64,000 nt of DNA, taken from assembly GCA_903819565.1 (NCBI GenBank), contig CAIJDY010000030.1:7128-71127 (forward strand), written 5' to 3'. The stretch comes from Candidatus Omnitrophota bacterium (GTDB lineage: Bacteria > Omnitrophota > Omnitrophia > Omnitrophales > Aquincolibacteriaceae). Shown here piece after piece: positions 1,772-49,771 of the stretch. Positions within the stretch are counted from its first letter, which is position 1. Every line of letters starts with the position of its first letter. The notes below the pieces were generated by a model, which was not told the origin of the DNA, did no database searches, and saw only the letters and a list, made by a program, of their open reading frames with translations. Position numbers and translations under genes: made by a program.

Positions 1772-3436
1772 GTGTTTTCCCCAAAGCTGGCGACATGCCT
1801 TAAAGATTATTCCAAGGAGAAATTTTTCACGGATTGTATCGCGGGATTCATCGTCGGAGTTGTCGCGATCCCTTTGGCGATCGCTTTCGCGATCGCTTCC
1901 GGAGTGTCTCCGGACAAAGGTCTTTTTACGGCGATCATCGCCGGATTCCTCGTTTCCGCGCTGGGCGGGAGCCGGGTGCAGATCGGCGGGCCGACGGGCG
2001 CTTTTGTGGTCATTGTTTACGGTATTGTCCAGAAATACGGGATTGACGGACTGATTCTCGCGACGTTGATGGCGGGTATTATGCTTGTGGTCATGGGGAT
2101 CGCGAAACTCGGAACGGCGATCAAGTTCATGCCACATTCCGTGATCGTCGGGTTCACCAGCGGCATCGCGGTGATCATCTTTTCATCCCAGGTGAAGGAT
2201 TTCCTGGGTCTGAGTATTGAAAAAGTGCCGGCGGAATTTGTGGAAAAGTGGCACATCTTTTTTCAGCATTTGGGCACGGTGAATTACGTTGCGTTGTTGT
2301 TGGGCCTGGCCACGGTCTTGATCATTTCCGTGACTCCCAAATTTTCCAAAAGGGTTCCGGGCGCGCTTGTGGCCCTTATCGTCGTGACCGTTTTCGCGGC
2401 CGTGTTCCGTTTACCCGTCGAGACGATCGGCAGCCGTTTCGGGGAGCTGCCTCACGGCCTGCCCGTGCCGCATTTCCCTCTTCTGAATTTTTTAAAGATC
2501 CGGGAACTTCTTCAGCCGGCCGTGACGATCGCGCTCCTGGGAGCCATCGAGTCCCTGCTGTCCGCCGTAGTCGCGGACGGCATGATCGGGGCTCGACACC
2601 GTCCCAACACCGAGCTGATCGGTCAGGGGATCGCGAACATCGGCTCCGCGCTTTTCGGCGGGATCCCCGCGACGGGAGCGATCGCGAGAACCGTGACCAA
2701 TATTAAGAACGGGGGCAGGACCCCGGTTGCCGGGATCATTCACGCGATCACGGTCCTTCTCATCATGTTATTCTTCGGAGCTTGGGTCAAATTCGTGCCC
2801 CTGGCTTGTCTGGCGGGGATTCTCGTCGTGGTCGCGTACCATATGAGCGAATGGCGGTCTTTCCGCGAGCTGCTCAAAGGCTCCCGCGGCGGAAGGATCG
2901 TCCTGGGCATGACGTTCCTTTTGACGATCTTCGTGGACCTGAACGTTGCCATTGAGATCGGGGTGGTGCTGGCGGCATTCCTCTTCATGAAGCGGATGTC
3001 CGAGATAACGGATGTGAAGGTTTTTGCCCGGGAATATGAAGAAGACGAGAAAATGGAGCGGGGAGAGGATCGGCCCTTATCGGCCTTTTCACTTCCTCCG
3101 AAAGTCGAGGTTTACGAGATCAACGGCCCGCTTTTCTTTGGGGCCGCCAACAGCTTTGATGAGGCCGAGAGAGAGATCTCCGGAAAACGCAAGGTGCGGA
3201 TCCTGCGTTTCCGGGACGTGCCTTTGATCGATTCGACCGGCATGCACGCGCTGAAGGGTTTTTATAATAAGACCAAGCGGGAAGGCATCCGTCTTGTGAT
3301 GACCGGACTCCATGTCCAGCCGCTGAATGAAATGGTCAAATCGGATCTTTACGACCTGGTCGGCGAAGAGAACGTTTTCGCGAGCATGAAAGAGTCGATC
3401 GCGCGGGCGGAAGAATTGTTGAATGAAAAAAAATAG
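1772..3436 (+). CDS. SulP family anion transporter (sulfate/bicarbonate/dicarboxylate permease type) with C-terminal STAS domain
   Basis: 554 aa; GTG start preceded by AGGAGAG RBS; N-terminal region (…AIPLAIAFAIASGVSP…GGPTGAFVV…) matches SulP/BicA/DauA-type permeases; C-terminal soluble ~130 aa with STAS-like segment (NGPLFFGAANSF…IDSTGMHAL). Confidence 0.85.
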   Translation: MFSPKLATCLKDYSKEKFFTDCIAGFIVGVVAIPLAIAFAIASGVSPDKGLFTAIIAGFLVSALGGSRVQIGGPTGAFVVIVYGIVQKYGIDGLILATLMAGIMLVVMGIAKLGTAIKFMPHSVIVGFTSGIAVIIFSSQVKDFLGLSIEKVPAEFVEKWHIFFQHLGTVNYVALLLGLATVLIISVTPKFSKRVPGALVALIVVTVFAAVFRLPVETIGSRFGELPHGLPVPHFPLLNFLKIRELLQPAVTIALLGAIESLLSAVVADGMIGARHRPNTELIGQGIANIGSALFGGIPATGAIARTVTNIKNGGRTPVAGIIHAITVLLIMLFFGAWVKFVPLACLAGILVVVAYHMSEWRSFRELLKGSRGGRIVLGMTFLLTIFVDLNVAIEIGVVLAAFLFMKRMSEITDVKVFAREYEEDEKMERGEDRPLSAFSLPPKVEVYEINGPLFFGAANSFDEAEREISGKRKVRILRFRDVPLIDSTGMHALKGFYNKTKREGIRLVMTGLHVQPLNEMVKSDLYDLVGEENVFASMKESIARAEELLNEKK

Positions 3437-3803
3437 ATCCAGCGGAGTTTCTACGCGGGAAGGCCCCATGAAAAAAATAGATGACATGGTGTTCAAGATC
3501 AAAGCGGACTTTTTAAAAGCCCTGGCGCATCCGGCCCGTTTGCAGGTCATTGAATACCTCAAAAACGGGGAGGCCAGCGTGGGAAAACTTGTCCAGGCGC
3601 TGGGGATTGAACAGTCAAGCCTGTCGCGGCACTTGGCCACGCTGCGGAACCTCGGGGTCCTGGAGGCGCGCCAGGAAAAGACGAATGTTTACTATAACCT
3701 GCAGGATCATGATATTTTCAAGGTGTTGCGGCCGATCGCCGAGCTCCTCCGGAAAAAACTGAAAAGAAGCGAGAAAATGCTGGAGAGCCTCGGCGAAGAA
3801 TAA
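3423..3803 (+). CDS. ArsR/SmtB family HTH transcriptional regulator (no metal-binding Cys motif evident)
   Basis: HTH segment LKALAHPARLQVIEYLKNGEASVGKLVQALGIEQSSLSRHLATLRNLGVL is typical ArsR-family; start may instead be the internal ATG at 3468 (MKKIDDMVF). The 3' end of the SulP gene overlaps this ORF. Confidence 0.75.
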   Translation: MKKNRSSGVSTREGPMKKIDDMVFKIKADFLKALAHPARLQVIEYLKNGEASVGKLVQALGIEQSSLSRHLATLRNLGVLEARQEKTNVYYNLQDHDIFKVLRPIAELLRKKLKRSEKMLESLGEE

Positions 3804-3819: not shown

Positions 3820-4503
3820 ATGCAATTGACTTTCCGTGAGATAGAAAACGCTTTTGAGGTCGAAGAGAAAACGCTTTATCAGTGGCTCAATGAGCGGGGA
3901 ATGCCGGCGGTCAAGGCCAACGATCAGTACTATTTCAACTCGGTCGAGGTCCTGGAATGGGCGCTCAAGTATAAGGTCCGTCTGACGCTCGGGGCCTTGA
4001 AGCTTTGTGAAAAAAACCGTCCCGGTCAGGATATTTTCACCCCGGCCCTCCTTCGCGGAGGCGTTCATTTCGGGATCAAGGGGGGCCGTCGCGAGGAGAT
4101 CTTCCGGGAAGTTTTGAGCCTCCTGCCGCTTCCAGGCCACATTGACCGTTCTTCTTTAATGGAAATGCTGATCTCCCGTGAACAGGCCGGCACGACCGGC
4201 ATCGGGAACGGGATCGCCATCCCTCACGTCAAACACCCCGTGATCTTTGCCGGCCTCGATCCCGTGATCGGGCTTTTTTTTCTTGAAAAACCGGTCGATT
4301 TTGCCGCCCTTGACGGAGAGCGGGTCCATACGCTGTTCGTGATACTGTCCGGCTCTTTTAAAGGACATTTGTCGCTCCTTTCTCGTTTGGCCTTTTGTCT
4401 GCAACGCGAAAGCGTTCAAGCGGTCCTGTGCCGCCGTTCGAATGCCGAAGATATCCTCGCGACGTTCCAGGTTGCGGAAGCAAAAACCGTGAAGACCTCC
4501 TAA
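3820..4503 (+). CDS. Two-domain regulator: N-terminal excisionase/MerR-type HTH (HTH_17-like) fused to PTS EIIA type-2 (EIIA-Ntr/PtsN-like) domain
   Basis: N-term LTFREIENAFEVEEKTLYQWLNERGMPAVKANDQYYFNSVEVLEW resembles HTH_17 DNA-binding domains; C-term REQAGTTGIGNGIAIPH carries the phosphorylatable His signature of PTS_EIIA_2; stop codon immediately abuts the next ATG (4504). Confidence 0.7.
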   Translation: MQLTFREIENAFEVEEKTLYQWLNERGMPAVKANDQYYFNSVEVLEWALKYKVRLTLGALKLCEKNRPGQDIFTPALLRGGVHFGIKGGRREEIFREVLSLLPLPGHIDRSSLMEMLISREQAGTTGIGNGIAIPHVKHPVIFAGLDPVIGLFFLEKPVDFAALDGERVHTLFVILSGSFKGHLSLLSRLAFCLQRESVQAVLCRRSNAEDILATFQVAEAKTVKTS

Positions 4504-6351
4504 ATGGAAACATTCTTCCGCGGGCCCTGGCAGGTCCCTTTCGGCGAACTCTCACTCAAGGTTGATCCCTTGAGCCTCGTTTTTCTTGTCGCGATCACGA
4601 TCCTTGTCCTGTGCGCCGGGGCATACGGTATCGGGTATATGCGTCCGTATCGAGGAAAGAAACCCTTGGGGATCCACGCCTTTTTTTACGGGGTCCTGGC
4701 GTTGGACCTTGTCCTTATCGTTACCGCCAACAACGCGATCCTTTTCCTGGGGGCGTGGGAGCTCATGACCCTTTCCACGTTTTTTTGTATTATTTTCGAT
4801 GACGAAAAATCCTCGGTGCGTAAGGCCGGATTTATTTATTTGATCGCGTCCCATTGCGCGACGTTTTTTCTTTTCCTGATGTTTTTTTTGATGGCCCGCG
4901 CCGCAGGATCGATGGATTTCGATATCATGGCGCGGACGGGTTTTTCGCCGGTCCTTGCGGGGATCGTTTTTCTCCTGGCGCTGGCCGGTTTCGGGGTCAA
5001 GGCGGGATTCCTCCCGGTGCATATTTGGTTGCCGTATGCCCATCCGGCCTCGCCTTCCCATATCTCCGCTTTGATGTCGGGGATCACGATCAAAATGGGG
5101 ATCTACGGGATCTGTCGCGTGCTGTGGATCATGAAAGTGCTGCCGAATTGGTGCGGGTATGTCCTTTTGATGATCGGCGTGTCCTCCGGCATTATGGGGG
5201 TCTTATACGCCCTCGGGCAGCACGAGTTGAAAAAATTGTTGGCCTATCACAGTATTGAAAATATCGGCATCATTGCGCTCGGGTTGGGTGTGGGATTATT
5301 GGGAAGGAGCCATCAGGTCCCCTTCCTCGCGGTTCTCGGATTCGGCGGAGGTCTCTTGCATGTCCTGAACCACTCGCTTTTCAAAAGCCTTCTTTTTTTT
5401 GGAGCGGGTTCCGTCATCCAAAAGACACACACCGGTGAAATGGACCGTCTCGGAGGCCTGGCCAGGACCTTGCCGGTCACAAGCATCCTTTTCCTGGTGG
5501 GGGCACTCTCGATCTGCGGTCTGCCGCTCTTTAACGGGTTCATCAGCGAATTCATTATTTATTTCGGGCTTTTCCAGGGACTTCTCGGTCTTCCAGTGCA
5601 AGGGGGGATCTTTTGTTCGCTGGGGATCCTTGCGCTGGCGCTTATGGGCGCGCTTGCCCTGGCCTGTTTTTGTAAAGTCTACGGGACCGTTTTTTTGGGT
5701 AAGCCCCGTGTGGATATCAATGGCCCTTTAAAGGATCCCGCGGCGCGGCAGGGGATCCGTGAAGGGACATCGCGGTGGATGCTTGTTCCCATGATGATCC
5801 TGGCGGGGCTCTGCGTCTGGATCGGTCTTGTTCCCCGGACAGCGGCGGGGTTGGCTTTCCGCGGAGGGGCCTACCTGACGCATGTGGATCTTGCCGCGGT
5901 CCCGCTGGGGCAGGTTTTCACGCCCTTGACGATGGTCGTCCGTATCGTCCTTCTGTTCCTCGCGCTCGTTTTGGGATTGATCGTGGTCCGGCGGTTTCTT
6001 TTGGGAGGAACGTCCATGCCAGTCCGGGAAACCTGGAGCTGCGGTTTTTCACAGGTCTCATCGAGATTTCAATACACCTCTGCTTCTTTTGCCCGATCGA
6101 TCGTCGATTTGATGAAAAACGTCCTTTTTTTCCGCCGCTACGGGGGACAGGTCGCGGGCGTTTTCCCGGAGAAAACGTCCTTGGTTTCCTCGGTTCACGA
6201 TGTTTCCGAAGAGATGGTTTACAGGCCCGGGTTGGCTTTGTTAAATTATATTTCCGAAAAACTCGGCCATAGCCGTATCCGTTATACGCAGCTCTACCTG
6301 GTCTACATTCTTCTGTTCCTGATATTTTTACTGGTCTGGAAATTAAAATAA
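4504..6351 (+). CDS. Complex I NuoL / hydrogenase-4 HyfB / MnhA-like antiporter-type membrane subunit
   Basis: 615 aa, ~15 predicted TM; conserved antiporter-subunit motif WLPYAHPASPSHISALMSGITIKMG (cf. [25 protein letters not shown] of NuoL/M/N family). Confidence 0.85.
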   Translation: METFFRGPWQVPFGELSLKVDPLSLVFLVAITILVLCAGAYGIGYMRPYRGKKPLGIHAFFYGVLALDLVLIVTANNAILFLGAWELMTLSTFFCIIFDDEKSSVRKAGFIYLIASHCATFFLFLMFFLMARAAGSMDFDIMARTGFSPVLAGIVFLLALAGFGVKAGFLPVHIWLPYAHPASPSHISALMSGITIKMGIYGICRVLWIMKVLPNWCGYVLLMIGVSSGIMGVLYALGQHELKKLLAYHSIENIGIIALGLGVGLLGRSHQVPFLAVLGFGGGLLHVLNHSLFKSLLFFGAGSVIQKTHTGEMDRLGGLARTLPVTSILFLVGALSICGLPLFNGFISEFIIYFGLFQGLLGLPVQGGIFCSLGILALALMGALALACFCKVYGTVFLGKPRVDINGPLKDPAARQGIREGTSRWMLVPMMILAGLCVWIGLVPRTAAGLAFRGGAYLTHVDLAAVPLGQVFTPLTMVVRIVLLFLALVLGLIVVRRFLLGGTSMPVRETWSCGFSQVSSRFQYTSASFARSIVDLMKNVLFFRRYGGQVAGVFPEKTSLVSSVHDVSEEMVYRPGLALLNYISEKLGHSRIRYTQLYLVYILLFLIFLLVWKLK

Positions 6352-6366
6352 AAAATGAGGTCCTGA

Positions 6367-7302
6367 GTGGATTTTATACTGAACAAGGCATTGCCGGTTT
6401 TGTTCCACTGGGGAGGCGTTTGCCTGTTCGCGCCGTTTTTTCTCGGCGTGATCGCCAGGGTGAAGGCATTTTTTTCAGGAAAAACGGGGCCTTCCGTGTT
6501 CCAGCTTTACTTTGATCTTGCGAAGCTCTTTCGCAAGAAGTGTGTCTACAGCGGCACCGCGACATGGATCTTTCGCGCGGCCCCCGCGGTGATCCTGGGG
6601 GTCATGCTGACCCTGTCCCTGATGGTCCCTTTCGGCAGATTCAAAGCGCCGGTGCAATTTTCGGGCGATGTCCTGTTGGCGGTCTATCTTCTGGCTGTAG
6701 GCAGATTTTTCATGATCCTCGCGGCCCTGGACACGGGGTCCAGTTTTGAAGGTATGGGGGCCAGCCGTGAAGCGTTCTTCTCGTGCCTGTCGGAATTGGC
6801 GCTCTTCATGAATTTCATCGTGCTGGCGCTGCTGGCCAAGAGCATTTCGCTCTCCCAGATGATCGGCGCGAATATCCCGATGTCCTGGGGAGGCATGGAA
6901 CCGGTGTTACTTCTGGTCGTGGTGAGTTTTTTCATCGTGCTTCTGGCGGAAAATTGCCGCATTCCGATAGACGATCCGGAGACCCACCTGGAACTGACGA
7001 TGATCCATGAGGTGATGATCCTGGACCACAGCGGCGTTGATCTGGCTTTCATGCTTCACGCCGCGGCAATGAAATTTTTTATTTTTTCCGGGATCCTTGT
7101 TTCCATCATCATCCCGGTGCGGACCGGGAACGCGGTGATGGACATGGCGATCTTTTTCGGCGGGATGCTGGGCCTGGCGGTCCTGGTGGGGGTCGTGGAG
7201 TCCACCACCGCTCGTTTCCGCCTTAACCGGGTAAGGCTCCTGTTGCTGATCTCGTTCGCGCTGGCATTTTTCGGTCTCATCGTAACGTTGTGGAGGGCCT
7301 GA
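6367..7302 (+). CDS. NuoH / HycD / HyfC-like membrane subunit of complex I / formate hydrogenlyase-type modules
   Basis: 311 aa; GTG start with GAGG RBS; N-term …FFLGVIARVKAFFSGKTGPSVFQLYFDLAKLFRKK…ATWIFRAAP… parallels HycD/NuoH conserved N-terminal region. Confidence 0.8.
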   Translation: MDFILNKALPVLFHWGGVCLFAPFFLGVIARVKAFFSGKTGPSVFQLYFDLAKLFRKKCVYSGTATWIFRAAPAVILGVMLTLSLMVPFGRFKAPVQFSGDVLLAVYLLAVGRFFMILAALDTGSSFEGMGASREAFFSCLSELALFMNFIVLALLAKSISLSQMIGANIPMSWGGMEPVLLLVVVSFFIVLLAENCRIPIDDPETHLELTMIHEVMILDHSGVDLAFMLHAAAMKFFIFSGILVSIIIPVRTGNAVMDMAIFFGGMLGLAVLVGVVESTTARFRLNRVRLLLLISFALAFFGLIVTLWRA

Positions 7303-7306
7303 GGGC

Positions 7307-7963
7307 ATGATGTCCTTGATCGATGTGTGTTGTATCCTGGCCGTGTTTCTGGCGCTGACGGTCCTGGCGACGCACCGTATTGTGGGAATGATCAAGCTCT
7401 TTGCGTTGCAATCCTTTTTCCTGAGCCTTGTGCCGCTGTTCCTGCACGCGGAGGCTCTTTCGGGCCGCGACCTCATGCTTTCTCTCGTGACGATGGTGCT
7501 CAAGGCCGCGTTGGTTCCTGCGATCCTCTTCTGGACGATCCGGCACATCTCGATGCGTTCCGAGATCAAACCAATCCTCGGGTTCGGGGCCTCGATCCTT
7601 TGCGGCGCGGCGTTGATCGCGGTCGCTTTCTGGATCTCCTTGTCTTTACGGTTGCCCGGAAAGCTGACCTCGAGCCTGGTCCTGCCGTGCTCGCTGGCGA
7701 CGATGCTGTTAGGTTTTATGACCATGGTGACCCGGACGCGTGCCATGACCCAGGTCTTGGGCTACATGGTGATCGAGAACGGGATTTTTCTTTTCGCGCT
7801 GTCGCTTTTTGACGCCATGCCGCTGCTCATTGAAATGGGCATCCTGCTGGATATTTTTGTCGCGGTCTTTATCATGGCCATCGTGCTCAATCACATCAAC
7901 GAGGAGTTCGAAAGGACCCGGGGCTCCGCGGTGAGCCGGCCTAAATGGGGGGAAAGTCAGTGA
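7307..7963 (+). CDS. Small polytopic membrane subunit, HyfE / NuoK / MnhC-like
   Basis: 218 aa, ~6 TM, sits between NuoH-like and NuoN-like genes as hyfE does in hyf operons; GGAGGG RBS; family call by position and size. Confidence 0.5.
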   Translation: MMSLIDVCCILAVFLALTVLATHRIVGMIKLFALQSFFLSLVPLFLHAEALSGRDLMLSLVTMVLKAALVPAILFWTIRHISMRSEIKPILGFGASILCGAALIAVAFWISLSLRLPGKLTSSLVLPCSLATMLLGFMTMVTRTRAMTQVLGYMVIENGIFLFALSLFDAMPLLIEMGILLDIFVAVFIMAIVLNHINEEFERTRGSAVSRPKWGESQ

Positions 7964-9375
7964 TCCTGTCCTTTTTGATCGCGATCCCGTTTATGGGAGC
8001 CCTGGCCGTATTGCTGCCGGTGAGGCCTCTGTTCAGACGGTGGTTTTTTTGGGCGGTGTCTCTCACGCATGCCTTGATCGTGACTTTTTTCTGGGCGCTG
8101 CGGCCGGCTCCGGAATGGCAGGGGTATCTGGTGCTGGACCCCCTAGGGCTTATCCTGCTCTCGGTGATAAGCCTTCTCTTTCTGGCCGTGTCTTTTTTCA
8201 TGATCGGTTATTTCCAGTATGAACAAAGGGGTAACCGGATATTCACGGCGTGTCTCTTGGCGCTTCTGTCCATGATGACGCTGGTTTCGGTGAGCTATCA
8301 CATGGGGCTTTTGTGGGTGGCAATAGAGACGACGACGCTTTTCAGCGCCCCTTTGATCGCTTTCCATCGTGATTGGAAAAGTCTGGAAGCCACCTGGAAG
8401 TACTTGCTGGTCTGTTCCGTGGGGATCGCTTTGGCGCTGATGGGGACCTTTTTCCTTGCGATCGCGGCTCACGATACGCACACGCTCCTTCTGCCGGCGA
8501 TCCTGAGCGCGGCGCCTTCACTTTCCGTCAATTGGCTGAAACTGAGCGTTATTTTCCTGTTCGTCGGCTACGGTTGCAAGATGGGACTTGCCCCGATGCA
8601 TAGCTGGAAGCCGGAAGCTTACGGCCAGGCGACCGGCATGGTGGTGGTTTTGATGGCCGGGGGCCTGACGCAGTGTTCTTTTTTGGCGCTCATGCGGGTG
8701 AGTCAGATCTGCTACAAGACAGGATTAAGCGATTTTTACGCTTCCATTCTGATCGTGACCGGGATCCTGTCGCTCGTGGTTCCGGCGGTACTTTTGTTGA
8801 GCGAGAAAAACATTAAAAGGTCGTTCGCTTTTTCCTCCGTCGAGCACATGGGGATCCTGGTCCTGGGGCTCGGGTTGGGAGGGCTCGGGATCTTTGGCGC
8901 CTTATTTCATATGGTCAATAACGCCCTGGCAAAGGTGGTGATGTTCCTTACGGCCGGGTCCATCGCCCAGAAATACGGGTCTTCCCGCGTCGAGGACGTG
9001 CGGGGGATCATCCACACCTATCCCATGACGGGCATTTTTTTGATCGTCTCGCTGTTTGCCGGGACGGGGATGTTCCCCTTCGCGACGTTCCATAGCGAAC
9101 TGTTGATACTCAACGCTTCGATCATTTCAAAGCACTACCTGTTGGCAGGGAGCTTCGTCCTGTGTCTGGCCGTTATTTTTATCGGAATGGCCAGGATCGT
9201 TTTGGCGTTCGTCTATGGCCAACCGACGGAACCGGTCCTGGCTAAAAAGGAAAATTTCTTTATGAATACGACCATCGTGGTTGCCGCGGTCGTCTTGCTG
9301 GGAGTTGGCTTGTGGATGCCGGTTTCCTTGAACAGGGCGCTCCACGAAGCGGTGACGTTGATCGGGGCGTCTTAA
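7945..9375 (+). CDS. NuoN/NuoM / HyfF-like antiporter-type membrane subunit
   Basis: 476 aa, ~13 TM, proton-pumping antiporter-like subunit profile; overlaps upstream gene (alternative GTG at 7960 gives GTGA start/stop overlap, suggesting translational coupling). Confidence 0.8.
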   Translation: MGGKSVILSFLIAIPFMGALAVLLPVRPLFRRWFFWAVSLTHALIVTFFWALRPAPEWQGYLVLDPLGLILLSVISLLFLAVSFFMIGYFQYEQRGNRIFTACLLALLSMMTLVSVSYHMGLLWVAIETTTLFSAPLIAFHRDWKSLEATWKYLLVCSVGIALALMGTFFLAIAAHDTHTLLLPAILSAAPSLSVNWLKLSVIFLFVGYGCKMGLAPMHSWKPEAYGQATGMVVVLMAGGLTQCSFLALMRVSQICYKTGLSDFYASILIVTGILSLVVPAVLLLSEKNIKRSFAFSSVEHMGILVLGLGLGGLGIFGALFHMVNNALAKVVMFLTAGSIAQKYGSSRVEDVRGIIHTYPMTGIFLIVSLFAGTGMFPFATFHSELLILNASIISKHYLLAGSFVLCLAVIFIGMARIVLAFVYGQPTEPVLAKKENFFMNTTIVVAAVVLLGVGLWMPVSLNRALHEAVTLIGAS

Positions 9376-9442
9376 TTCTTGTTTAAAAATTTACAGTGAA
9401 TTGGGGCGTAAACAAGGCCCGGTTTGGAACGAATGAGGACTT

Positions 9443-10957
9443 ATGGAATTGTTTAATGGCGGCAACATTTCTTTAAAAGATATCCCGGTTTTAGCGGAAA
9501 AAGAATTCCGCGAAGAAGTGATTCTTCGCTGCCGGGAGGACGCGCGGCTGATGAACTTTTTCGGATGCGCGGAGGACGGGGGCGACGTCCGCTTGATCGT
9601 GATCCTGGGACTCAGCGAAGAGTCTTTGTTGCGGGTGTTTGCGACAAAAATTCCGGCGGGATCTCCCCGTTATCAATCGTTGACCAGGGAGCTACCTCAA
9701 GCGCAATTATTCGAACGCGAGATCGCGGAGCAGTGGGCGGTCACCCCCGAAGGGCACCCTTGGCTTAAACCGGTGAGGTATCACGCGAATTACCGCGGCG
9801 TGCCGGACCTTTGGAAGGATGTCGCGCGGCAGACGATCCCGGGATCTTATCCTTTTTATGCCGTGGGCGGCGAGGAGGTCCATGAAGTGGGTGTGGGGCC
9901 GGTGCATGCCGGTATTATCGAGCCCGGACATTTCCGGTTCCAGTGTCACGGGGAAGAGGTGCTGCATCTGGAGATCCAATTGGGATACCAGCATCGCGGT
10001 ATCGAGCCCCTAATGGGCGTGGGAAAAGATCTGAAACGGGGAGTTCTTTTAAGCGAGTCCATTGCCGGGGACACTTCGATCGGTCATTCTACGGCGTATT
10101 GCGAGGCGATCGAATCGCTGGCGGGTTGCGCGGTTCCGCTGAGGGCGCAGGCCCTCCGCGCGGTGACGCTGGAGCTGGAACGGCTGGCGAATCACGTGGG
10201 CGACCTGGGCGCTTTGGGGATGGATGCCGGTTTTCTGCCGACCAGCGCGTATTTCGGCCGCATGCGTGGGGATTACTTGAATCTATTGCTGGAACTGACG
10301 GGAAACCGTTTTGGGAAGGGACTCTGCCGGCCGGGAGGTGTCCTTTTTGATATGGATACTGCCATGGCCGAAGATTTCTGCCGGAAACTGAAGCGCTATA
10401 AAAAAGAATTCGAAGAAGTAAGCGATCTTTTTTTCACCCGTCCGTCGGTCCTTGCGCGTTTTGAAGGTATCGGGATTCTTCCCCTGAAGACCGCGAAAGA
10501 CCTGGGGGTGGTGGGTCCCGTTGCGCGCGCGAGCCAGTCGGAGCAGGATGTGCGTATCGATTATTCCTCCGGGATATGGCAATTCTATCATGTGCCCATT
10601 TCTCTGGCCGCGACCGGGGACGTTTACGCGCGGGCTCTGGTGCGGCGGCAGGAAGTGATGCGCTCGCTGGAATTCTTGCTGAAACTTTTGCCGTCTTTAC
10701 CCAAAGGGGATATCAGAGCCCCCCTCGGTCCTTTAAAGCCGGAGAGGCTTGCGGTCTCTCTGGTAGAGGGATGGCGCGGCGAGATCATGCATGTCGGTAT
10801 GACCGACGGCCAGGGCGCCTTGTCCCGATACAAGATCAAAGATCCCTCGTTTCACAATTGGTTCGCATTGACCCACGCGATGCGCAATCAGGAAATATCT
10901 GATTTTCCGTTATGCAATAAAAGCTTCAATTTGTCCTATTGCGGGCATGATCTATGA
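9443..10957 (+). CDS. Fused NuoC-NuoD / HycE-like large subunit of a group-4 [NiFe]-hydrogenase-related complex; canonical Ni-Fe Cys ligands apparently absent
   Basis: 504 aa; N-terminal ~120 aa NuoC(30 kDa)-like, remainder NuoD/HycE-like (…HRGIEPLMG…GHSTAYCEAIE…RGDYLN…). Where HycE/EchE have the L1 motif R-x-C-G-I-C-x-x-x-H the sequence reads SIAGDTSIGH; the C-terminal DPCxxCxxR position reads NLSYCGHD (Cys offset, spacing broken). Confidence 0.8.
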   Translation: MELFNGGNISLKDIPVLAEKEFREEVILRCREDARLMNFFGCAEDGGDVRLIVILGLSEESLLRVFATKIPAGSPRYQSLTRELPQAQLFEREIAEQWAVTPEGHPWLKPVRYHANYRGVPDLWKDVARQTIPGSYPFYAVGGEEVHEVGVGPVHAGIIEPGHFRFQCHGEEVLHLEIQLGYQHRGIEPLMGVGKDLKRGVLLSESIAGDTSIGHSTAYCEAIESLAGCAVPLRAQALRAVTLELERLANHVGDLGALGMDAGFLPTSAYFGRMRGDYLNLLLELTGNRFGKGLCRPGGVLFDMDTAMAEDFCRKLKRYKKEFEEVSDLFFTRPSVLARFEGIGILPLKTAKDLGVVGPVARASQSEQDVRIDYSSGIWQFYHVPISLAATGDVYARALVRRQEVMRSLEFLLKLLPSLPKGDIRAPLGPLKPERLAVSLVEGWRGEIMHVGMTDGQGALSRYKIKDPSFHNWFALTHAMRNQEISDFPLCNKSFNLSYCGHDL

Positions 10958-10988
10958 AGCGCTTTGACCGTAGAAGCGGGGAGCCTTT

Positions 10989-11669
10989 ATGCTGAATATT
11001 TTAATGGAGCGTTTAAAACAGGGCCGCCGGACTTTATCCTTTCCCAAGGGGAAGCCCCCGGTCCTGCCGGCGCGTTATCGGGGCCGCCCCATCGTCGCGG
11101 GCCTGAAAGACGGTGTGGACTTGGGGAAGATCACCTTTATCCCCGACAGCGGCATTCAACATTCTAATGATTTTCGTATGGCGGCTTCTCGCCGGGAAGA
11201 TCTCGTTCTTAAGGGTGACGACGCGCACGCTTTGGCACATGCGTTGAATAAGAAGATCTTGGAGATGTTCGGCCGTTCTCTGAAGCTGCGGCAGGTTTCA
11301 GCGGGCGGGTGCAATGCCTGCGAGGCAGACATCAATGTCCTGAATACGCCCGTCTTTGATCTCAGCCGTTTCGGTATTCAATTCGTCGCGTCGCCGCGCC
11401 ATGCCGACGGGATCGTCGTCACGGGTCCCATTTCGCGCAATATGAAAGAAGCGCTTCTGAAAACTCACGAAGCCACACCGGACCCCAAGATCGTTATTGC
11501 GGTCGGTGCTTGCGCGATCTCCGGAGGTATTTTTTCCGAAAGTCCGGAATCTTCCAAGGGGCTGGACACCCTTCTTCCCGTAGACCTTTATATCCCCGGC
11601 TGTCCTCCGCACCCCTTGACCATTCTTGACGGGCTCCTGAGATTGATGGGAAGGCTCAGAAAAGAATGA
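10989..11669 (+). CDS. NuoB / HycG / EchC-like small subunit with intact [4Fe-4S] (N2-type) Cys set
   Basis: 226 aa; …RSLKLRQVSAGGCNACEAD… (CxxC), …AVGACAISGG…, …YIPGCPPHP… correspond to the four Cys of HycG/NuoB-type subunits. Confidence 0.8.
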   Translation: MLNILMERLKQGRRTLSFPKGKPPVLPARYRGRPIVAGLKDGVDLGKITFIPDSGIQHSNDFRMAASRREDLVLKGDDAHALAHALNKKILEMFGRSLKLRQVSAGGCNACEADINVLNTPVFDLSRFGIQFVASPRHADGIVVTGPISRNMKEALLKTHEATPDPKIVIAVGACAISGGIFSESPESSKGLDTLLPVDLYIPGCPPHPLTILDGLLRLMGRLRKE

Positions 11670-11782: not shown

Positions 11783-12259
11783 TTAATGAGAAGCCTGTTC
11801 GCCCGCGTCCGGAGTTTCCGGGGGAGCGACCTGGAGGGGGTTCAGATTGGCGTGGAAGGCCCATTTCCAGCCCTCCGGAGTCTTGATCCAGCCGCTGAGG
11901 CGCATCGCCGCCCGCGTGGGAAGGTCCAGGGGGCCGATGTTCTCTTCGGTCATGACCCGGTAGCTGACAAGAATGAGGGAATCGGTTTGCGTGGTTTTAA
12001 TATAGCTGAGCTCGTACTGGTCAATGTTCAGTTCCTTCAGAAGCGCCATTTCTTCCGCTCCGTTGCGGGCGATATCCTCATGGACGGACTGGAACTCCGG
12101 GGCCATATCTTTTTCGATCTGGGCCCAATTGCCTTCATGAACGTTCTTCCAGAGTTCACGGACAAGCGTTTCGCCCTGGGACATCTCTTCAGCGAAAGTC
12201 GGTGGAACGGAACCCAGTAAAAAGAAAACGAAACAAAGAACGACGAGTTTGTTTCTCAT
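11783..12259 (-). CDS. Secreted NTF2-like / SnoaL-like fold protein (unknown function)
   Basis: Start taken at internal MRNKLVVLCFVFFLLGSVPPTFA (Sec signal peptide); ~135-aa mature domain with W/E-rich pattern typical of NTF2-like (DUF4440/SnoaL-like) proteins; family call tentative. Confidence 0.45.
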   Translation of the reverse strand: MRNKLVVLCFVFFLLGSVPPTFAEEMSQGETLVRELWKNVHEGNWAQIEKDMAPEFQSVHEDIARNGAEEMALLKELNIDQYELSYIKTTQTDSLILVSYRVMTEENIGPLDLPTRAAMRLSGWIKTPEGWKWAFHANLNPLQVAPPETPDAGEQASH

Positions 12260-12298
12260 GGCGTCTCCTTCCATGCGGATCTTCATACCGTCTCAGGG

Positions 12299-12769
12299 TT
12301 AGTCGGACTCTTTCCAGATATCGCCGCGCCGTCCGATCTTAACAACGTCGTTTATCTTGATCTTCAGGATGGCGAATTTCTCCGAGATCTCCACTTCGAA
12401 ATGTTCGTGTTTTTTTCCCGTCCGGACCGCTTCGATCACGCGGTCGGCCGAGAGCTTGACGACTTTTTCATCCCATTCTCTCAACATGGCATCGTAGCTT
12501 TTGCCCCGCTCGATCACTTTTGCGGTCCCGTTCAGGCGGTAGGCCTCCAGAGCGTCCTGTTCCATAAAAGAAACGGAGACGAGGGGGTTCTCTTTGATGT
12601 TGACGACCGTCTGGCCCATGACGTGATCGATCAAATAGAGGGAATCCCTCTTGGCGTGGAGAAAAAGCTTCGGGGCGGAATTCGGCCGGCCGTCACGGGT
12701 GGCGGTGCCGACCGAGACGAACTTTCTTTTTCCGAGTAATTCCTGGATTTTTTCCGTGATCTTGGGCAT
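12299..12769 (-). CDS. Pyridoxamine 5'-phosphate oxidase-like FMN-binding protein (general stress protein 26-like)
   Basis: 156 aa; …FVSVGTATRDGRPNSAPKLFL…LYLIDHVMGQTVVNIKENPLVSVSF… pattern typical of PNPOx split-barrel family. Confidence 0.6.
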   Translation of the reverse strand: MPKITEKIQELLGKRKFVSVGTATRDGRPNSAPKLFLHAKRDSLYLIDHVMGQTVVNIKENPLVSVSFMEQDALEAYRLNGTAKVIERGKSYDAMLREWDEKVVKLSADRVIEAVRTGKKHEHFEVEISEKFAILKIKINDVVKIGRRGDIWKESD

Positions 12770-12942
12770 AAAAGTCCTTGAAGGTCCCCATTATACTCCC
12801 AAAACGGCAAAAGTTGTGCCAGTTTCGTGGTCTCTACTCAAATCAGGGCAGAGCGCAATAAGAATTGGATATTGCGGCAGACCTCAAACCTGCGCGAGCC
12901 AAACTGCTTGCCTCTATAGGTGAAATCCATTATAAGAAGGGC

Positions 12943-14094
12943 ATGCCCCGAGGATTGTATATTCATATTCCGTTCTGCAAGACCCGCTGCCACTATTGCA
13001 ATTTCATTTCGTTCGGAGAGACTACGCCGGAATTCCGGGAACGGTTCTTTAAGGCCTTATTTGAAGAGGTCCGTGAGGCCGGAAAAAAATATGGACAGCT
13101 GTTTTTCGACACGCTGTATCTCGGGGGCGGGACGCCGTCGCTGTTAAACGCTCAAGAGATGACCGGGCTTTTCGGGGAGGTCCGGAAAAATTTCGAAATT
13201 TCACAAGACGCCGAGATCACCTGCGAATGGAATCCGGGGGACGGGGAGGAAGAAAAATTCTCCGTTCTCAGAGCTCTGGGAGTCAACCGCCTCAGCCTCG
13301 GCGTCCAGTCTTTTCAGGACGGTCTATTGTCCCAGCTCGGGCGGAGGCATACCGTTCATGATACTTTGCGGACGCTCGAGAAGATCCAAAAAGCGGGCAT
13401 CGGCAATATCAGTTTTGACCTGATGCTTCGGATCCCGGGGCAGAAGCTCGCGGATTTTCAGGAGTCGCTTGAACGGTGCGTCGCATGCGGCGCCGCGCAG
13501 GTTTCGCTTTATGATTTGGAGGTCCATAAGGCCACGGTGTTCGGCGGGTTGCGGGAAAAAGGAGCGCTGGCGCTTCCGGATGAAGAGGAGCACGCGGGGA
13601 TGTATCAGGCGGCATGTGAAGGTCTGGTCCGCGCCGGCTACGAGCATTACGAGATCTCCAATTTCGCGAGGCCCGGCTTTGCGTCCCGGCACAATCTCAT
13701 CTATTGGCACAACCAGGAGTACCTGGGGCTGGGTCCCGGAGCTTTTTCCTATCTCGGCGGGATCCGTTCCCAATTCGCGGGCGAGGGGATCCGGTATCTT
13801 GAAAAGTGCGAGGCCGGGGACTGGCGGAACGATCAGGAAGACGTTCTCTCTGAAGCGGAACGGGAAACGGAGACTTTCGCGATGGGACTCCGTTTGGCAG
13901 AGGGCGTGAAGCTCCGGGATTTTCCGGGCATTTATCCGGGTCTTCGGGAACGCGTCGAGACCTTGTTGCAGAAAGGACTCCTTGAGCTCGCGGATGAAGA
14001 ATTACGTTTAACGGCCTGGGGGCGGTTCCTTTCGGAGGACATTTTCGGTTTTCTACTTCAAAAGGATAGGGGTTCCGAAGCGTGTTTTTTATGA
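12943..14094 (+). CDS. hemW: Radical SAM family heme chaperone HemW / HemN-like oxygen-independent coproporphyrinogen oxidase homolog
   Basis: LYIHIPFCKTRCHYCNF (CxxxCxxC radical-SAM motif directly after conserved LYIHIPFC); start moved to ATG at 12943 (AAGAAGGG RBS) rather than the TTG at 12865. Confidence 0.75.
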   Translation: MPRGLYIHIPFCKTRCHYCNFISFGETTPEFRERFFKALFEEVREAGKKYGQLFFDTLYLGGGTPSLLNAQEMTGLFGEVRKNFEISQDAEITCEWNPGDGEEEKFSVLRALGVNRLSLGVQSFQDGLLSQLGRRHTVHDTLRTLEKIQKAGIGNISFDLMLRIPGQKLADFQESLERCVACGAAQVSLYDLEVHKATVFGGLREKGALALPDEEEHAGMYQAACEGLVRAGYEHYEISNFARPGFASRHNLIYWHNQEYLGLGPGAFSYLGGIRSQFAGEGIRYLEKCEAGDWRNDQEDVLSEAERETETFAMGLRLAEGVKLRDFPGIYPGLRERVETLLQKGLLELADEELRLTAWGRFLSEDIFGFLLQKDRGSEACFL

Positions 14095-14151
14095 TATATT
14101 ATTCCCCAGCTTGATCTGCGAAACTCACCTTGCAACAAAGGAGAAATCAAC

Positions 14152-33507: not shown

Positions 33508-33879
33508 CTACCCCAGGACCTTCTCGATGGTTTGGAACAACACTTCGCCGGAAAAAGGTTTTTGGAGCACATGCTTGATGTGGGTGATGAACATCGTGGC
33601 TTCCAGGTAGGTTTCCCCTTTATTGATCGCGCCGCCCCCTGACATGGCGATAATCTTGGCCGCGGGGAATTCCCTTTGGATGTCCTGGATGGTCGTGACG
33701 CCGTCTTTGACCGGCATGATGATGTCCGTGATCACCAGGTCGACCGGGTTGCTTTTAATCGCCTGGAGCCCTTTGTCCCCGTCTTCCGCGGTGATGACCT
33801 GATGGTTTTTCCGTTCCAGCATTTCCTTCAGGGTCTCCCGGAACGAAGCGTTGTCTTCGATGACAAGGATGCGTGCCAT
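33508..33879 (-). CDS. Single-domain CheY-like response regulator (copy 3)
   Basis: MARILVIEDNASFRETLKEMLERKNHQVITAEDGDKGLQAIKSNPVDLVITDIIMPVKDG…; ~80% identical to copy 1. Confidence 0.85.
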   Translation of the reverse strand: MARILVIEDNASFRETLKEMLERKNHQVITAEDGDKGLQAIKSNPVDLVITDIIMPVKDGVTTIQDIQREFPAAKIIAMSGGGAINKGETYLEATMFITHIKHVLQKPFSGEVLFQTIEKVLG

Positions 33880-33893
33880 ACAGGCTCCCTTCT

Positions 33894-40480: not shown

Positions 40481-40522
40481 CAGAACCTCTAGAACGGGTT
40501 ACGATCCGGTCTTGCGACGGTC

Positions 40523-48851: not shown

Positions 48852-48853
48852 GG

Positions 48854-49765: not shown

Positions 49766-49771
49766 AACGGC

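What the first reader, a model, noticed from the sequence alone, without database searches (positions are those of the whole stretch)
9443..10957. Large subunit has lost both canonical Ni-Fe cysteine motifs while the small subunit keeps its [4Fe-4S] cysteines
At the N-terminal L1 position, group-4 large subunits carry R-x-C-G-I-C-x-x-x-H-S-T-A-Y. This protein reads S-E-S-I-A-G-D-T-S-I-G-H-S-T-A-Y, so both Cys are replaced by Ala and Thr. At the C-terminal D-P-C-x-x-C-x-x-R position it reads N-L-S-Y-C-G-H-D, leaving one off-register Cys, and there is no C-terminal extension for HycI-type processing. The partner NuoB/HycG-like subunit (10989-11669) retains all four cluster Cys (GGCNACE, GACAISGG, PGCPP). 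This is the hallmark of Ehr-type energy-converting hydrogenase-related complexes and of complex I itself: a quinone or unknown-substrate site rather than an H2 site.
Basis: partly seen in the sequence, partly recalled or inferred. Interest (0 to 1): 0.8.

Follow-up and report, generated by a model that had tools for sequence, protein, structure and literature searches.

The report
Hydrogenase-like membrane complex without nickel site
This gene encodes the large subunit of an "Ehr" complex, a widespread hydrogenase relative of unknown function that cannot bind nickel-iron; in this Omnitrophota lineage its partner subunit has also lost two of its three iron-sulfur clusters.

Summary
Aligned to E. 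coli HycE, the four Ni-Fe cysteines read Ala208, Thr211, Ser498 and Gly501. The protein ends exactly where mature HycE ends. The NuoB-like partner keeps all four cysteines of the proximal [4Fe-4S] cluster.

The locus is a seven-gene Ehr operon: a PtsN-like HTH-EIIA gene, then ehrA, B, C, D, L and S. Ehr ("Ech/energy-converting hydrogenase related") is a known family of unknown function. At least 592 species genomes carry Cys-less relatives.

The former Ni-Fe site is redesigned rather than decayed. Its signature is conserved family-wide (E-x-x-x-G-D-[T/S] and N-L-S-Y-x-G-x-D-L-stop), and dN/dS is 0.05-0.15. It also lacks complex I's quinone ligands: Tyr87 is Gly and His38 is Ile.

- The first ~95 residues of EhrS are a HycF/NuoI relic.
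- Most Ehr lineages keep two ferredoxin-type clusters in that module, but Omnitrophota have lost both. Other lineages have lost one or the other.
- No redox-partner gene is conserved nearby.

Best reading: a functional ion-translocating Ehr variant with a single cluster. What drives it is unknown. This is a new variant of a known kind, of moderate interest.

The parts
3820..4503 (+). HTH_17 plus PtsN-like PTS EIIA(Ntr) protein (227 aa). It is the first gene of the unit, and its stop abuts the ehrA start.
   Evidence: Pfam finds HTH_17 and PTS_EIIA_2. The best PDB matches are PtsN proteins (2a0j, E 1.8e-15), and the phosphorylatable His in GIGNGIAIPH (H136) is retained. The gene sits directly upstream of ehrA on the same strand in 28 of 58 informative loci from many phyla, and the His is conserved in 28 of 29 of these proteins.
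4504..6351 (+). EhrA, an antiporter-like subunit of the HyfB/NuoL type (615 aa).
   Evidence: Pfam finds Proton_antipo_M. NCBIfam best match is hydrogenase 4 subunit B, E 3e-159. The family-wide conserved charges are E86, K166, H286, K294 and E349.
6367..7302 (+). EhrB, a NuoH/HycD-like subunit (311 aa).
   Evidence: Pfam finds NADHdh, E 3e-32. Many acidic residues are conserved across 65 loci, including E128, E135, E143, E195, D202, D203, E209 and E215.
7307..7963 (+). EhrC, a HyfE-like membrane subunit (218 aa) with a NuoK-like C-terminal part.
   Evidence: NCBIfam finds hydrogenase 4 membrane subunit, E 5e-25. Pfam gives a weak Oxidored_q2 hit. E86, E157 and E176 are conserved.
7945..9375 (+). 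EhrD, an antiporter-like subunit of the HyfF/NuoN type (476 aa).
   Evidence: Pfam finds Proton_antipo_M. In the alignment to MbhH and across the family, the TM5 Glu (E128, 67/70), TM7 Lys (K212, 70/70), TM11 Lys (K330, 70/70) and TM12 Glu (E385, 64/70) are kept. The TM8 Lys is replaced by N/S/T/Q throughout the family.
9443..10957 (+). EhrL, a fused NuoC+NuoD / HycE-like large subunit without Ni-Fe ligands (504 aa).
   Evidence: The AlphaFold2 model has pLDDT 91.4. The best fold match is HycE 7z0s_E, TM 0.90.
10052..10099 (+). Former L1 motif, S204-Y219. A208 and T211 replace the two Cys. E205, G209 and D210 are conserved across the family.
   Evidence: Alignment to HycE and Nqo4 and family conservation.
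10925..10957 (+). Former L2 motif and C-terminus, F495-L504 plus the stop codon. S498 and G501 replace the two Cys. G501, D503 and L504 are invariant. There is no C-terminal extension.
10989..11669 (+). EhrS, the small subunit (226 aa): a NuoB/HycG-like domain carrying the proximal [4Fe-4S] Cys (C108, C111, C175, C205).
   Evidence: Pfam finds Oxidored_q6. PDB best matches are MbhJ (1.8e-38) and HycG (1.6e-34). The four Cys are invariant in 40 homologues.
10989..11273 (+). N-terminal ~95 residues of EhrS: a relic of a HycF/NuoI-type 2x[4Fe-4S] ferredoxin module with both Cys motifs removed.
   Evidence: The only PDB matches to this part are NuoI and HycF, and they are weak (E 0.01-0.16). hhalign of the relic profile against the canonical EhrS N-terminal module gives probability 99.9% and E 3.8e-36, with gaps exactly at the two Cys motifs. 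The canonical module matches HycF at 9.8e-23, MbhN at 8.7e-19 and NuoI at 4.5e-18.
1772..3803 (+). SulP/STAS anion transporter (1772-3436) and an ArsR-family regulator (3423-3803). They are tightly spaced upstream and conserved with the ehr genes in close Omnitrophota relatives. Whether they belong to the unit is uncertain.
   Evidence: Pfam assignments. The same SulP-ArsR-EIIA-ehr block occurs in L081, L083 and L084, and SulP lies next to EIIA in L001. SulP is near only about 6 of 80 loci overall. dN/dS is 0.01-0.06.

Best explanation
ORF 9443-10957 is EhrL, the large subunit of an Ehr (Ech/energy-converting-hydrogenase-related) membrane complex. The complex is encoded by ehrA-B-C-D-L-S (4504-11669) and preceded by a PtsN-like HTH-EIIA regulator gene.

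Shown:
- It cannot be a [NiFe]-hydrogenase, because all four metal ligands and the L1 Arg are replaced.
- It lacks complex I's quinone-binding Tyr and His.
- The replaced site has a family-wide conserved polar signature (E205, G209, D210, T/S211, D261, S498, Y499, G501, D503, L504-COOH) next to one hydrogenase-type proximal [4Fe-4S] cluster.
- All genes are under strong purifying selection.
- The charged residues that define the ion-translocation path of complex I, MBH and Mrp are conserved in EhrA, B, C and D.
- In this Omnitrophota lineage the HycF/NuoI-type two-cluster module, which most Ehr complexes carry fused to EhrS, is reduced to a Cys-free relic. Only the proximal cluster remains.

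Inferred: the complex is a working ion (H+ or Na+) translocator. A charge or conformational event in the redesigned EhrL/EhrS/EhrB pocket is transmitted through the conserved beta1-beta2 loop (GPVHAGIIEPGHFR), through EhrB, and through the two antiporter-like subunits. In canonical Ehr the event is most likely reduction of the proximal cluster by a soluble ferredoxin via the two relay clusters, with an unidentified non-H2 acceptor or protonation reaction in the pocket. In this variant, the donor must reach the proximal cluster directly at the surface vacated by the ferredoxin core. Otherwise the cluster has become structural or regulatory. Expression or activity is probably tied to the PTS(Ntr) phosphorylation state through the EIIA protein.
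For: Identity as Ehr:
- Domain content and order agree.
- HycE is the best sequence match and the best fold match (TM 0.90).
- At least 592 species loci carry the same Cys-less signature, and synteny is nearly universal, including Geobacter, Geomonas, Geothrix and Desulfogranum.
- The literature definition of Ehr matches.

Redesigned rather than decayed site:
- The L1 and L2 signatures and the invariant C-terminus are conserved down to 33% identity.
- dN/dS is 0.05-0.15 for all seven genes against two relatives.

Not a quinone site: Nqo4 Y87 aligns with G209 and H38 aligns with I159.

Single cluster.

Ion path kept.

No conserved partner gene within 5 kb in 80 loci.

EIIA partner.
Against: - No biochemical data exist for any Ehr complex. 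The papers read call the role unknown or never investigated, so the driving reaction and the transported ion are inference only.
- Two clusters are lost here. Gemmatimonadota have lost one cluster and Desulfobacterales the other. This weakens the idea that an external-donor relay is essential.
- The pocket geometry could not be examined. Only a single-chain model was available, and its two pocket elements (residues 153-158 and 502-504) have low confidence. The EhrS model was unusable.
- The whole genome was not available, so hyp genes, ferredoxins and quinone synthesis could not be checked.
Confidence: 0.75

Rival explanations
1. The Omnitrophota complex no longer performs redox chemistry. It would work as a regulated, Mrp-like cation/proton antiporter or ion-homeostasis device. 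The single [4Fe-4S] cluster would be structural or a redox/O2 sensor, and the carboxylate/hydroxyl pocket would bind a cation or relay protons.
For: - Both relay clusters are lost here, and different single clusters are lost independently in Gemmatimonadota and Desulfobacterales.
- No redox partner gene is conserved near 80 loci.
- The Cys ligands are replaced by conserved hard-ligand residues: Asp, Thr/Ser, Ser, Glu.
- The antiporter residues are conserved.
- The context is ion transport. SulP is co-conserved in Omnitrophota and a CLC channel gene overlaps ehrS in L081.
Against: - The four proximal-cluster Cys are invariant in 40 Omnitrophota sequences and present in 66 of 72 loci.
- 51 of 69 resolvable loci keep all three clusters, which argues for electron transfer in the family at large.
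- No precedent is known for a NuoB/D/H module driving antiport without redox chemistry.
Confidence: 0.25
2. It is a complex-I-like ferredoxin:quinone oxidoreductase. The pocket would bind menaquinone or ubiquinone in a non-canonical way.
For: - The NuoB/D/H architecture is homologous to the complex I Q-module.
- The Asp equivalent to Nqo4 D139 (D261) is conserved.
- Many Ehr carriers are quinone-containing respirers.
Against: - The Tyr87 equivalent is an invariant Gly and the His38 equivalent is Ile.
- The proximal cluster has the hydrogenase-type CxxC, not the complex I CC motif.
- The beta1-beta2 loop is of the hydrogenase type.
- Quinone synthesis is absent from some Omnitrophota (PMC10066038).
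- The electron relay is missing here.
Confidence: 0.12
3. It works like P. furiosus MBS (Mbx). The proximal [4Fe-4S] cluster itself would reduce a small soluble acceptor, such as a sulfane sulfur compound, in the former Ni-Fe pocket, coupled to ion pumping.
For: - The proximal cluster is the one redox centre that is retained.
- MbsL and MbsJ are detectable homologues (6u8y_L at 8.5e-20; 6u8y_J at 1.6e-23).
- MBS is cited as a hydrogenase-related complex in PMC6349859.
Against: - MBS is a more distant match than HycE or MbhL.
- MBS has 13 subunits with an Mrp module and a full MbsN ferredoxin subunit (recalled from the literature), and these are absent here.
- There is no sulfur-metabolism context in the window.
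Confidence: 0.1
4. It is a decaying, non-functional hydrogenase remnant, as stated for Geobacter Ehr in PMC13194489.
For: The catalytic site and, in this lineage, the relay clusters are lost. quotes this view.
Against: - dN/dS is 0.05-0.15 at saturated dS.
- The seven-gene synteny is conserved across many phyla and at least 592 species.
- The replacement residues are invariant.
- All Ehr subunits were detected and regulated in the Geobacter proteome (PMC7894505).
Confidence: 0.02
5. It is a true [NiFe]-hydrogenase and the by-eye register was wrong.
For: None was found.
Against: - The HMMER alignments to HycE and MbhL and the family alignment agree on the register.
- True hydrogenases in the same alignment show CGxC and CxxC at these columns.
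- Only one Cys lies anywhere near either motif.
Confidence: 0.01

Closest known systems
Ehr complex of Geobacter sulfurreducens (EhrA-1/A-2/B/C/D/L/S, GSU0739-0745; named by Coppi 2005, family extended by Marreiros et al. 2013). These two papers are cited in papers I read; I did not read them myself.
   Same: It has the same subunit set and gene order. The large subunit is Cys-less with the same L1 and L2 replacement signature. The small subunit has the proximal [4Fe-4S] Cys. Geobacterales loci share 47-50% EhrL identity. The HTH-EIIA gene is also present in Geomonas, Pelobacter and Geobacter loci.
   Different: There is one EhrA copy here, against two in many Geobacterales loci. EhrS here has lost both ferredoxin-type clusters and about 30 residues, whereas most lineages keep eight Cys and the two Geobacter-type loci (L032, L047) keep a reduced set. 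SulP and ArsR are co-conserved only in Omnitrophota.
E. coli formate hydrogenlyase / hydrogenase-4 (HycE/HyfG, HycG/HyfI, HycF/HyfH, HyfB, C, E, F; PDB 7Z0S)
   Same: It is the best sequence and fold match for EhrL (E 2.7e-51, TM 0.90). The membrane subunits score best against the Hyf models. The beta1-beta2 loop EPGHFR and the hydrogenase-type CxxC in the small subunit are shared. The protein ends at the mature HycE C-terminus.
   Different: There are no Ni-Fe ligands, no separate HycF subunit (it is fused and degenerate), no HycB/FdhF electron-input module, no C-terminal extension, and no hyp or hycI genes in the window.
Respiratory complex I Q-module (NuoB/CD/H/I)
   Same: The modules are homologous, NuoC and NuoD are fused as in E. 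coli, the Ni-Fe site is lost, and the Asp equivalent to Nqo4 D139 is conserved.
   Different: The Tyr87 and His38 equivalents are absent. The cluster motif is CxxC rather than CC. There are no NuoE/F/G, NuoA or NuoJ genes in the operon. The NuoI clusters are gone.
P. furiosus MBS/Mbx and MBH (PDB 6U8Y, 6CFW)
   Same: They are group-4-derived membrane complexes with antiporter-like subunits. MBS is a precedent for a homologue without H2 chemistry. MbhL, MbhJ and MbhH are strong matches.
   Different: Those complexes have a much larger Mrp-type membrane arm and an intact MbhN/MbsN two-cluster subunit.
M. tuberculosis Rv0081-Rv0087 ('hyc', regarded as an EHR complex; PMC6728331)
   Same: It is a hydrogenase-related six-gene cluster preceded by an ArsR-family regulator gene, and its function is unknown.
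   Different: I did not compare the sequences. The gene order differs (NuoB-like gene first, recalled from memory). No EIIA gene is reported there.

Membership tests
Group 4 [NiFe]-hydrogenase large subunit | L1 motif R-x-C-G-x-C-x3-H providing two Ni-Fe ligands | tested here: not met
   The sequence reads S206-I-A208-G-D-T211-S-I-G-H under HycE R-V-C-G-I-C-G-F-A-H. The same replacement is found family-wide.
Group 4 [NiFe]-hydrogenase large subunit | L2 motif D-P-C-x-x-C-x-x-R/H providing two Ni-Fe ligands | tested here: not met
   The sequence reads N496-L-S498-Y-C-G501-H-D-L504. S498 and G501 occupy the Cys positions.
Group 4 [NiFe]-hydrogenase large subunit | Homologous fold (NuoD/HycE) | tested here: met
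   PF00346 is found. The AlphaFold2 model has pLDDT 91.4 and TM 0.90 to 7z0s_E.
Group 4 [NiFe]-hydrogenase large subunit | Dedicated maturation genes (hypA-F, endopeptidase) | tested here: inconclusive
   None was found among all ORFs of 90 aa or more in the 64-kb window. Shorter ORFs were not scanned, and HypA and HypC can be about that small. The rest of the genome was not available.
Ehr (Ech/energy-converting hydrogenase related) complex | Large subunit related to group 4 hydrogenases but lacking the Ni-Fe cysteines | tested here: met
   The definition is as given in PMC6349859, PMC10284858 and PMC7304191.
Ehr (Ech/energy-converting hydrogenase related) complex | Subunit set EhrA (NuoL-like), EhrB (NuoH-like), EhrC (HyfE-like), EhrD (NuoN-like), EhrL and EhrS in one cluster | tested here: met
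   The subunit names follow PMC7894505. The same order is seen in about 70 of the 80 loci.
Ehr (Ech/energy-converting hydrogenase related) complex | Orthology with the Geobacter type cluster | tested here: met
   The Geobacter, Geomonas and Pelobacter loci L032, L034, L052 and L066 were recovered with the family-specific peptide NKS[FC][ND]LSY. They show 46-50% EhrL identity and the same synteny. G. sulfurreducens itself was not fetched.
Ehr (Ech/energy-converting hydrogenase related) complex | EhrS carrying a 2x[4Fe-4S] ferredoxin module in addition to the proximal cluster (the majority state in the family, established here) | tested here: not met
   There are no Cys in residues 1-94 and about 30 residues are deleted. 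By contrast, 51 of 69 loci have two full motifs. This makes the window a reduced variant.
Respiratory complex I (NuoD/NuoB Q-module) | Quinone head-group ligands Tyr87 and His38 (T. thermophilus Nqo4 numbering) | tested here: not met
   The corresponding residues are G209 and I159 (alignment to 2fug_4).
Respiratory complex I (NuoD/NuoB Q-module) | Cluster N2 ligated by tandem Cys-Cys in NuoB | tested here: not met
   The sequence is GGC108-N-A-C111-E, the hydrogenase-type CxxC. In the alignment to NdhK (CCFIE), A110 aligns with the first Cys.
Respiratory complex I (NuoD/NuoB Q-module) | NuoI with clusters N6a and N6b, and an electron-input module | tested here: not met
   Only a Cys-free NuoI relic is present. 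There are no NuoE/F/G genes in the operon or the window.
PTS EIIA(Ntr)/PtsN (for the upstream protein 3820-4503) | EIIA-2 fold with a phosphorylatable His in G-x-G-I-A-I-P-H | tested here: met
   The best match is 2a0j_A at 1.8e-15. GIGNGIAIPH136 aligns with the PtsN active-site His. The score is below the NCBIfam PtsN equivalog cut-off (68 against 139 bits) and the protein carries an extra HTH_17, so it is PtsN-like rather than PtsN itself.

The most novel reading that the evidence does not exclude
In Omnitrophota, Ehr has been stripped to a single iron-sulfur cluster and no longer needs an electron relay. It would be a natural intermediate between redox-driven complex-I/hydrogenase-type pumps and redox-independent Mrp antiporters: an ion translocator gated by a redox-sensing cluster and a cation- or proton-binding carboxylate pocket, under PTS(Ntr) control. 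The mosaic loss of different clusters in other phyla would mean that the whole Ehr family is drifting away from oxidoreductase chemistry.
Probability: 0.2. Interest if true: 0.75.

Novelty: new variant of a known kind. Interest (0 to 1): 0.45.

Why it matters
Ehr complexes occur in hundreds of bacterial species, including Geobacter and M. tuberculosis. They sit on the evolutionary path between membrane hydrogenases and complex I, yet no function is known.

This locus adds three testable constraints:
- The former Ni-Fe pocket is a conserved Asp/Thr/Ser/Glu site, not debris.
- The electron-input relay is dispensable in several lineages and is completely absent in Omnitrophota.
- The only conserved partner gene is a PtsN-like regulator.

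There is also a practical consequence. Such genes are annotated as "hydrogenase" or "NADH-quinone oxidoreductase". A published Omnitrophota survey used PF00346 as its marker for complex I. H2 metabolism or respiration can therefore be over-called in metabolic reconstructions of uncultured phyla.

Tried and rejected
- The first literature search was swamped by "EHR" (electronic health records) and "Ehrlichia". The Marreiros 2013 paper is not held.
- Single-sequence and profile searches of the EhrS N-terminus against the PDB gave only marginal NuoI and HycF hits (E 0.01-0.16). The full-length profile listed only NuoB-type chains. Homology was established transitively through canonical EhrS modules.
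- The AlphaFold2 model of EhrS was unusable (pLDDT 49.6), so the fold of the relic was not assessed. No multimer prediction was possible, so the pocket geometry, the cavity and the exposure of the cluster could not be examined.
- Clustering of all flanking ORFs within 5 kb in 80 loci found no recurrent redox partner: no Fdh, NuoEF or HycB. Only histidine kinases (11 loci) and SulP (6 loci) recurred.
- The Rfam, tRNA and promoter/terminator scans added nothing.
- I considered and rejected the pseudogene reading (dN/dS), a misaligned true hydrogenase, and a canonical quinone site.
- I did not assign which of the two ferredoxin clusters is adjacent to the proximal cluster, because I could not verify the ligand assignment from held sources.
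Full report
**Observation.** The ORF at 9443-10957 (+) encodes a 504-aa protein with a NuoC-like N-terminus (PF00329) fused to a NuoD/HycE-like body (PF00346). Its best solved relative is E. coli HycE (7z0s_E, E 2.7e-51), followed by MbhL and T. thermophilus Nqo4.

That alignment places S206-I-A208-G-D-T211 under HycE R-V-C-G-I-C, and N496-L-S498-Y under D-P-C-Y. The four Ni-Fe ligands are therefore Ala208, Thr211, Ser498 and Gly501, and the L1 Arg is Ser206. Cys500 is off register. The chain ends at Leu504, which is equivalent to HycE Arg537. From the literature as I recall it, that is the residue after which HycI cleaves, so there is no C-terminal extension.

The next ORF (10989-11669) matches MbhJ and HycG (E 1e-38 and 1e-34). 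It has C108, C111, C175 and C205 in GGCNACE, GACAISGG and PGCPP.

**What the locus is.** Upstream on the same strand, with gaps of 0-67 nt or short overlaps, lie five genes:
- a HyfB/NuoL-like antiporter subunit (4504-6351);
- a NuoH/HycD-like subunit (6367-7302);
- a HyfE-like subunit (7307-7963);
- a HyfF/NuoN-like subunit (7945-9375);
- ahead of all of these, a 227-aa HTH_17 plus PTS-EIIA protein (3820-4503).

This is the subunit set named EhrA, B, C, D, L, S in Geobacter (PMC7894505). Several papers define Ehr complexes as relatives of group 4 hydrogenases that lack the Ni-Fe cysteines, and state that their function is unknown (PMC6349859, PMC7304191, PMC10284858).

The closest proteins (up to 86% identity) come from Candidatus Omnitrophota MAGs, where they are annotated "hydrogenase" or "NADH-quinone oxidoreductase subunit C".

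I scanned one genome per species with the family peptides VGP[VI]HAG[IV]I and NKS[FC][ND]LSY. The taxa include Omnitrophota, Planctomycetota, Verrucomicrobiota, Gemmatimonadota, Acidobacteriota, Spirochaetota, Desulfobacterales and Geobacterales, with cultured Geomonas limicola, Geothrix paludis and Desulfogranum marinum among them. tblastn mapping shows the order ehrA(-A2)-B-C-D-L-S in nearly all 80 retained loci.

**The former Ni-Fe site is redesigned, not decayed.**
- In 119 representatives of 50%-identity clusters and in a 40-sequence alignment reaching down to 33% identity, the Cys-less members share E205-[S/T]-[I/V]-[A/S/C]-G209-D210-[T/S]211...H215 at L1. They share F-N-L497-S498-Y499-x-G501-x-D503-L504-stop at L2.
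- G209, G501, D503 and L504 are invariant. E205, D210, L497, S498 and Y499 are conserved in at least 90% of sequences.
- Cys500 varies (C/A/S), so it is not a ligand.
- True hydrogenases in the same alignment read ERICGxC and FELCYxCxDR.
- The beta1-beta2 loop GPVHAGIIEPGHFR is shared by both groups.
- Against Nqo4, the quinone ligand Tyr87 aligns with Gly209 and His38 aligns with Ile159, while Asp139 is conserved as D261. The small subunit uses the hydrogenase CxxC rather than complex I's CC. The pocket is therefore neither an H2 site nor a canonical quinone site.
- The AlphaFold2 model is confident (pLDDT 91.4, pTM 0.92), except at residues 153-158 and 502-504, the two elements that line the old site. 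Its best PDB fold match is HycE (TM 0.90), followed by E. coli NuoCD.

**The small subunit.** EhrS has about 95 N-terminal residues that MbhJ and HycG lack.
- Searched alone or as a 30-sequence profile, this part hits only NuoI and HycF in the whole PDB, and weakly (E 0.01-0.16). Residues 13-42 match NuoI 28-56 and residues 51-78 match NuoI 109-136. The roughly 52 NuoI residues that carry the cluster cysteines are reduced to 8 residues.
- In the other phyla the same region is a complete 2x[4Fe-4S] module (C-x3-4-C-x2-C-x3-CP ... C-x2-C-x2-C-x3-CP) fused to the NuoB part. This holds in 51 of 69 resolvable loci.
- A profile of that canonical module matches HycF over its full length (E 9.8e-23), MbhN (8.7e-19) and NuoI (4.5e-18).
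- hhalign between the Omnitrophota relic and the canonical module gives probability 99.9% and E 3.8e-36, with two gaps exactly at the two Cys motifs.
- All 40 aligned Omnitrophota EhrS sequences lack Cys motifs in this region, and all 120 listed homologues are of the short (210-229 aa) length.
- Other lineages show partial losses. Gemmatimonadota keep Cys 1-3 of motif 1 plus the last Cys of motif 2. Desulfobacterales keep Cys 1-3 of motif 2 plus the last Cys of motif 1. In a 2x[4Fe-4S] ferredoxin fold, by established knowledge, those patterns correspond to opposite clusters. Two Geobacter-type loci show a third pattern.
- The proximal-cluster cysteines are complete in 66 of 72 loci. Four loci show apparent substitutions and two are truncated; I did not examine these.

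**Is it functional, and what is conserved around it?**
- Against two Omnitrophota relatives (L081 and L083, 83-86% EhrL identity), dN/dS is 0.05-0.15 for all seven genes, with dS about 1.
- In EhrD the TM5 Glu, TM7 Lys, TM11 Lys and TM12 Glu of antiporter-like subunits are kept in 64-70 of 70 sequences. Only the TM8 Lys is replaced family-wide. EhrA, EhrB and EhrC likewise keep sets of membrane-embedded charges.
- Clustering of all flanking ORFs within 5 kb over 80 loci found no recurrent redox partner.
- The one conserved extra gene is the HTH-EIIA protein. It lies directly upstream on the same strand in 28 of 58 informative loci, and nearby in other arrangements in several more. Its EIIA domain is PtsN-like and keeps the phosphorylatable His (H136) in 28 of 29 sequences.
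- In Omnitrophota a SulP/STAS transporter and an ArsR regulator are co-conserved upstream, and in L081 a CLC channel gene overlaps the ehrS stop.
- No hyp or hycI family member occurs among the window's ORFs of 90 aa or more.

**Mechanism.**

Shown: this is a selected, intact Ehr complex that cannot bind Ni-Fe. It lacks the complex I quinone ligands, keeps one [4Fe-4S] cluster next to a conserved polar pocket, and keeps the ion-path residues.

Inferred: it translocates ions, with an event at the EhrL/EhrS/EhrB interface as the trigger.
- For canonical Ehr, the fused HycF-like module and the absence of a partner gene point to a soluble ferredoxin as donor, as in Ech and MBH. The acceptor is unidentified.
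- For this variant, either a donor reaches the proximal cluster directly where the ferredoxin core has been excised, or the cluster is no longer catalytic. The second, a redox-independent and PtsN-controlled ion translocator, is a serious rival at about 0.25.
- A non-canonical quinone reductase, an MBS-like cluster-catalysed reductase, a pseudogene and a misread true hydrogenase are less likely or excluded. The Rival explanations section gives the reasons.

**Comparison and novelty.** The loss of the Ni-Fe cysteines is the defining and already published hallmark of Ehr, so the finding as written is a correct recognition of a known family.

Three things appear not to be described in the papers I could read.
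- The HycF/NuoI-NuoB fusion nature of EhrS.
- The complete loss of both relay clusters in Omnitrophota, and the mosaic loss elsewhere.
- The conserved replacement signature, and the conserved PtsN-like partner gene.

I therefore file the locus as a new variant of a known kind.

One practical note: a survey of Omnitrophota scored "respiratory complex I" by PF00346 (PMC10066038). EhrL matches PF00346 at 130 bits, so Ehr may inflate complex I or hydrogenase calls in this phylum.

**Limits.**
- There are no biochemical data for any Ehr complex.
- Only single-chain modelling was possible.
- The EhrS model failed.
- The rest of the genome was unavailable.
- Most comparison loci are MAGs, although the lineage-specific patterns recur in several independent assemblies.

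Noticed in passing
window 3820-4503 (+): A small HTH_17 plus PtsN-like EIIA protein with the phosphorylatable His retained. It abuts ehrA and is conserved upstream of Ehr clusters in many phyla. It may link Ehr to PTS(Ntr) signalling.
   Followed up: partly
window 1772-3803 (+); L081, L083, L084: A SulP/STAS anion transporter and an ArsR-family regulator are co-conserved with the ehr genes in close Omnitrophota relatives. The M. tuberculosis EHR-like operon also starts with an ArsR-type gene, Rv0081 (PMC6728331).
   Followed up: partly
L081 12224-13594: In an 86%-identical relative, a CLC-type chloride channel gene overlaps the stop of ehrS. An extra Usp gene and a stand-alone EIIA gene lie upstream.
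   Followed up: no
L028, L020, L029, L015 (Gemmatimonadota); L041, L070, L062, L073, L053, L078, L042 (Desulfobacterales); L032, L047 (Geobacter-type): Different lineages have lost different halves of the two-cluster ferredoxin module of EhrS. Four loci (L065, L059, L011, L031) appear to lack proximal-cluster Cys.
   Followed up: partly
window 7945-9375 (EhrD) and family: The TM8 Lys that is typical of antiporter-like subunits is N/S/T/Q throughout the Ehr family, while the TM5, TM7, TM11 and TM12 charges are kept.
   Followed up: partly
literature (PMC10066038) versus window 9443-10957: The Omnitrophota survey called 'respiratory complex I' by PF00346, which EhrL also matches. NCBI names relatives 'hydrogenase' or 'NuoC'. 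There is a risk of systematic mis-annotation.
   Followed up: no
window 21903-23912 (+), 24028-25989 (+), 29721-31796 (-): Three large ORFs (650-690 aa) have no Pfam match. The first two are adjacent on the same strand.
   Followed up: no
window 33508-38261 (-): A 1455-aa histidine kinase with dCache and multiple PAS domains sits next to a stand-alone response regulator.
   Followed up: no
window 11783-14904: Genes with a redox or haem-related flavour lie immediately downstream of the operon: DUF4440, a PNPOx/F420-like flavoprotein, HemW and rubrerythrin. The PNPOx-like gene and HemW are also found next to ehrS in L083 and L084.
   Followed up: no
L066 13473-20530; L071 311-9911: Some genomes carry a second, more distant paralogous cluster (large subunit 39-41% identical) adjacent to the Ehr cluster. 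I did not check whether it keeps the Ni-Fe Cys.
   Followed up: no
window 38510-42854 (-) and 47244-51748 (-): There are two efflux systems: MacB-type ABC + HlyD + OEP, and MFS + HlyD + OEP with a MarR regulator. No tRNA or Rfam hit occurs anywhere in the 64 kb.
   Followed up: no
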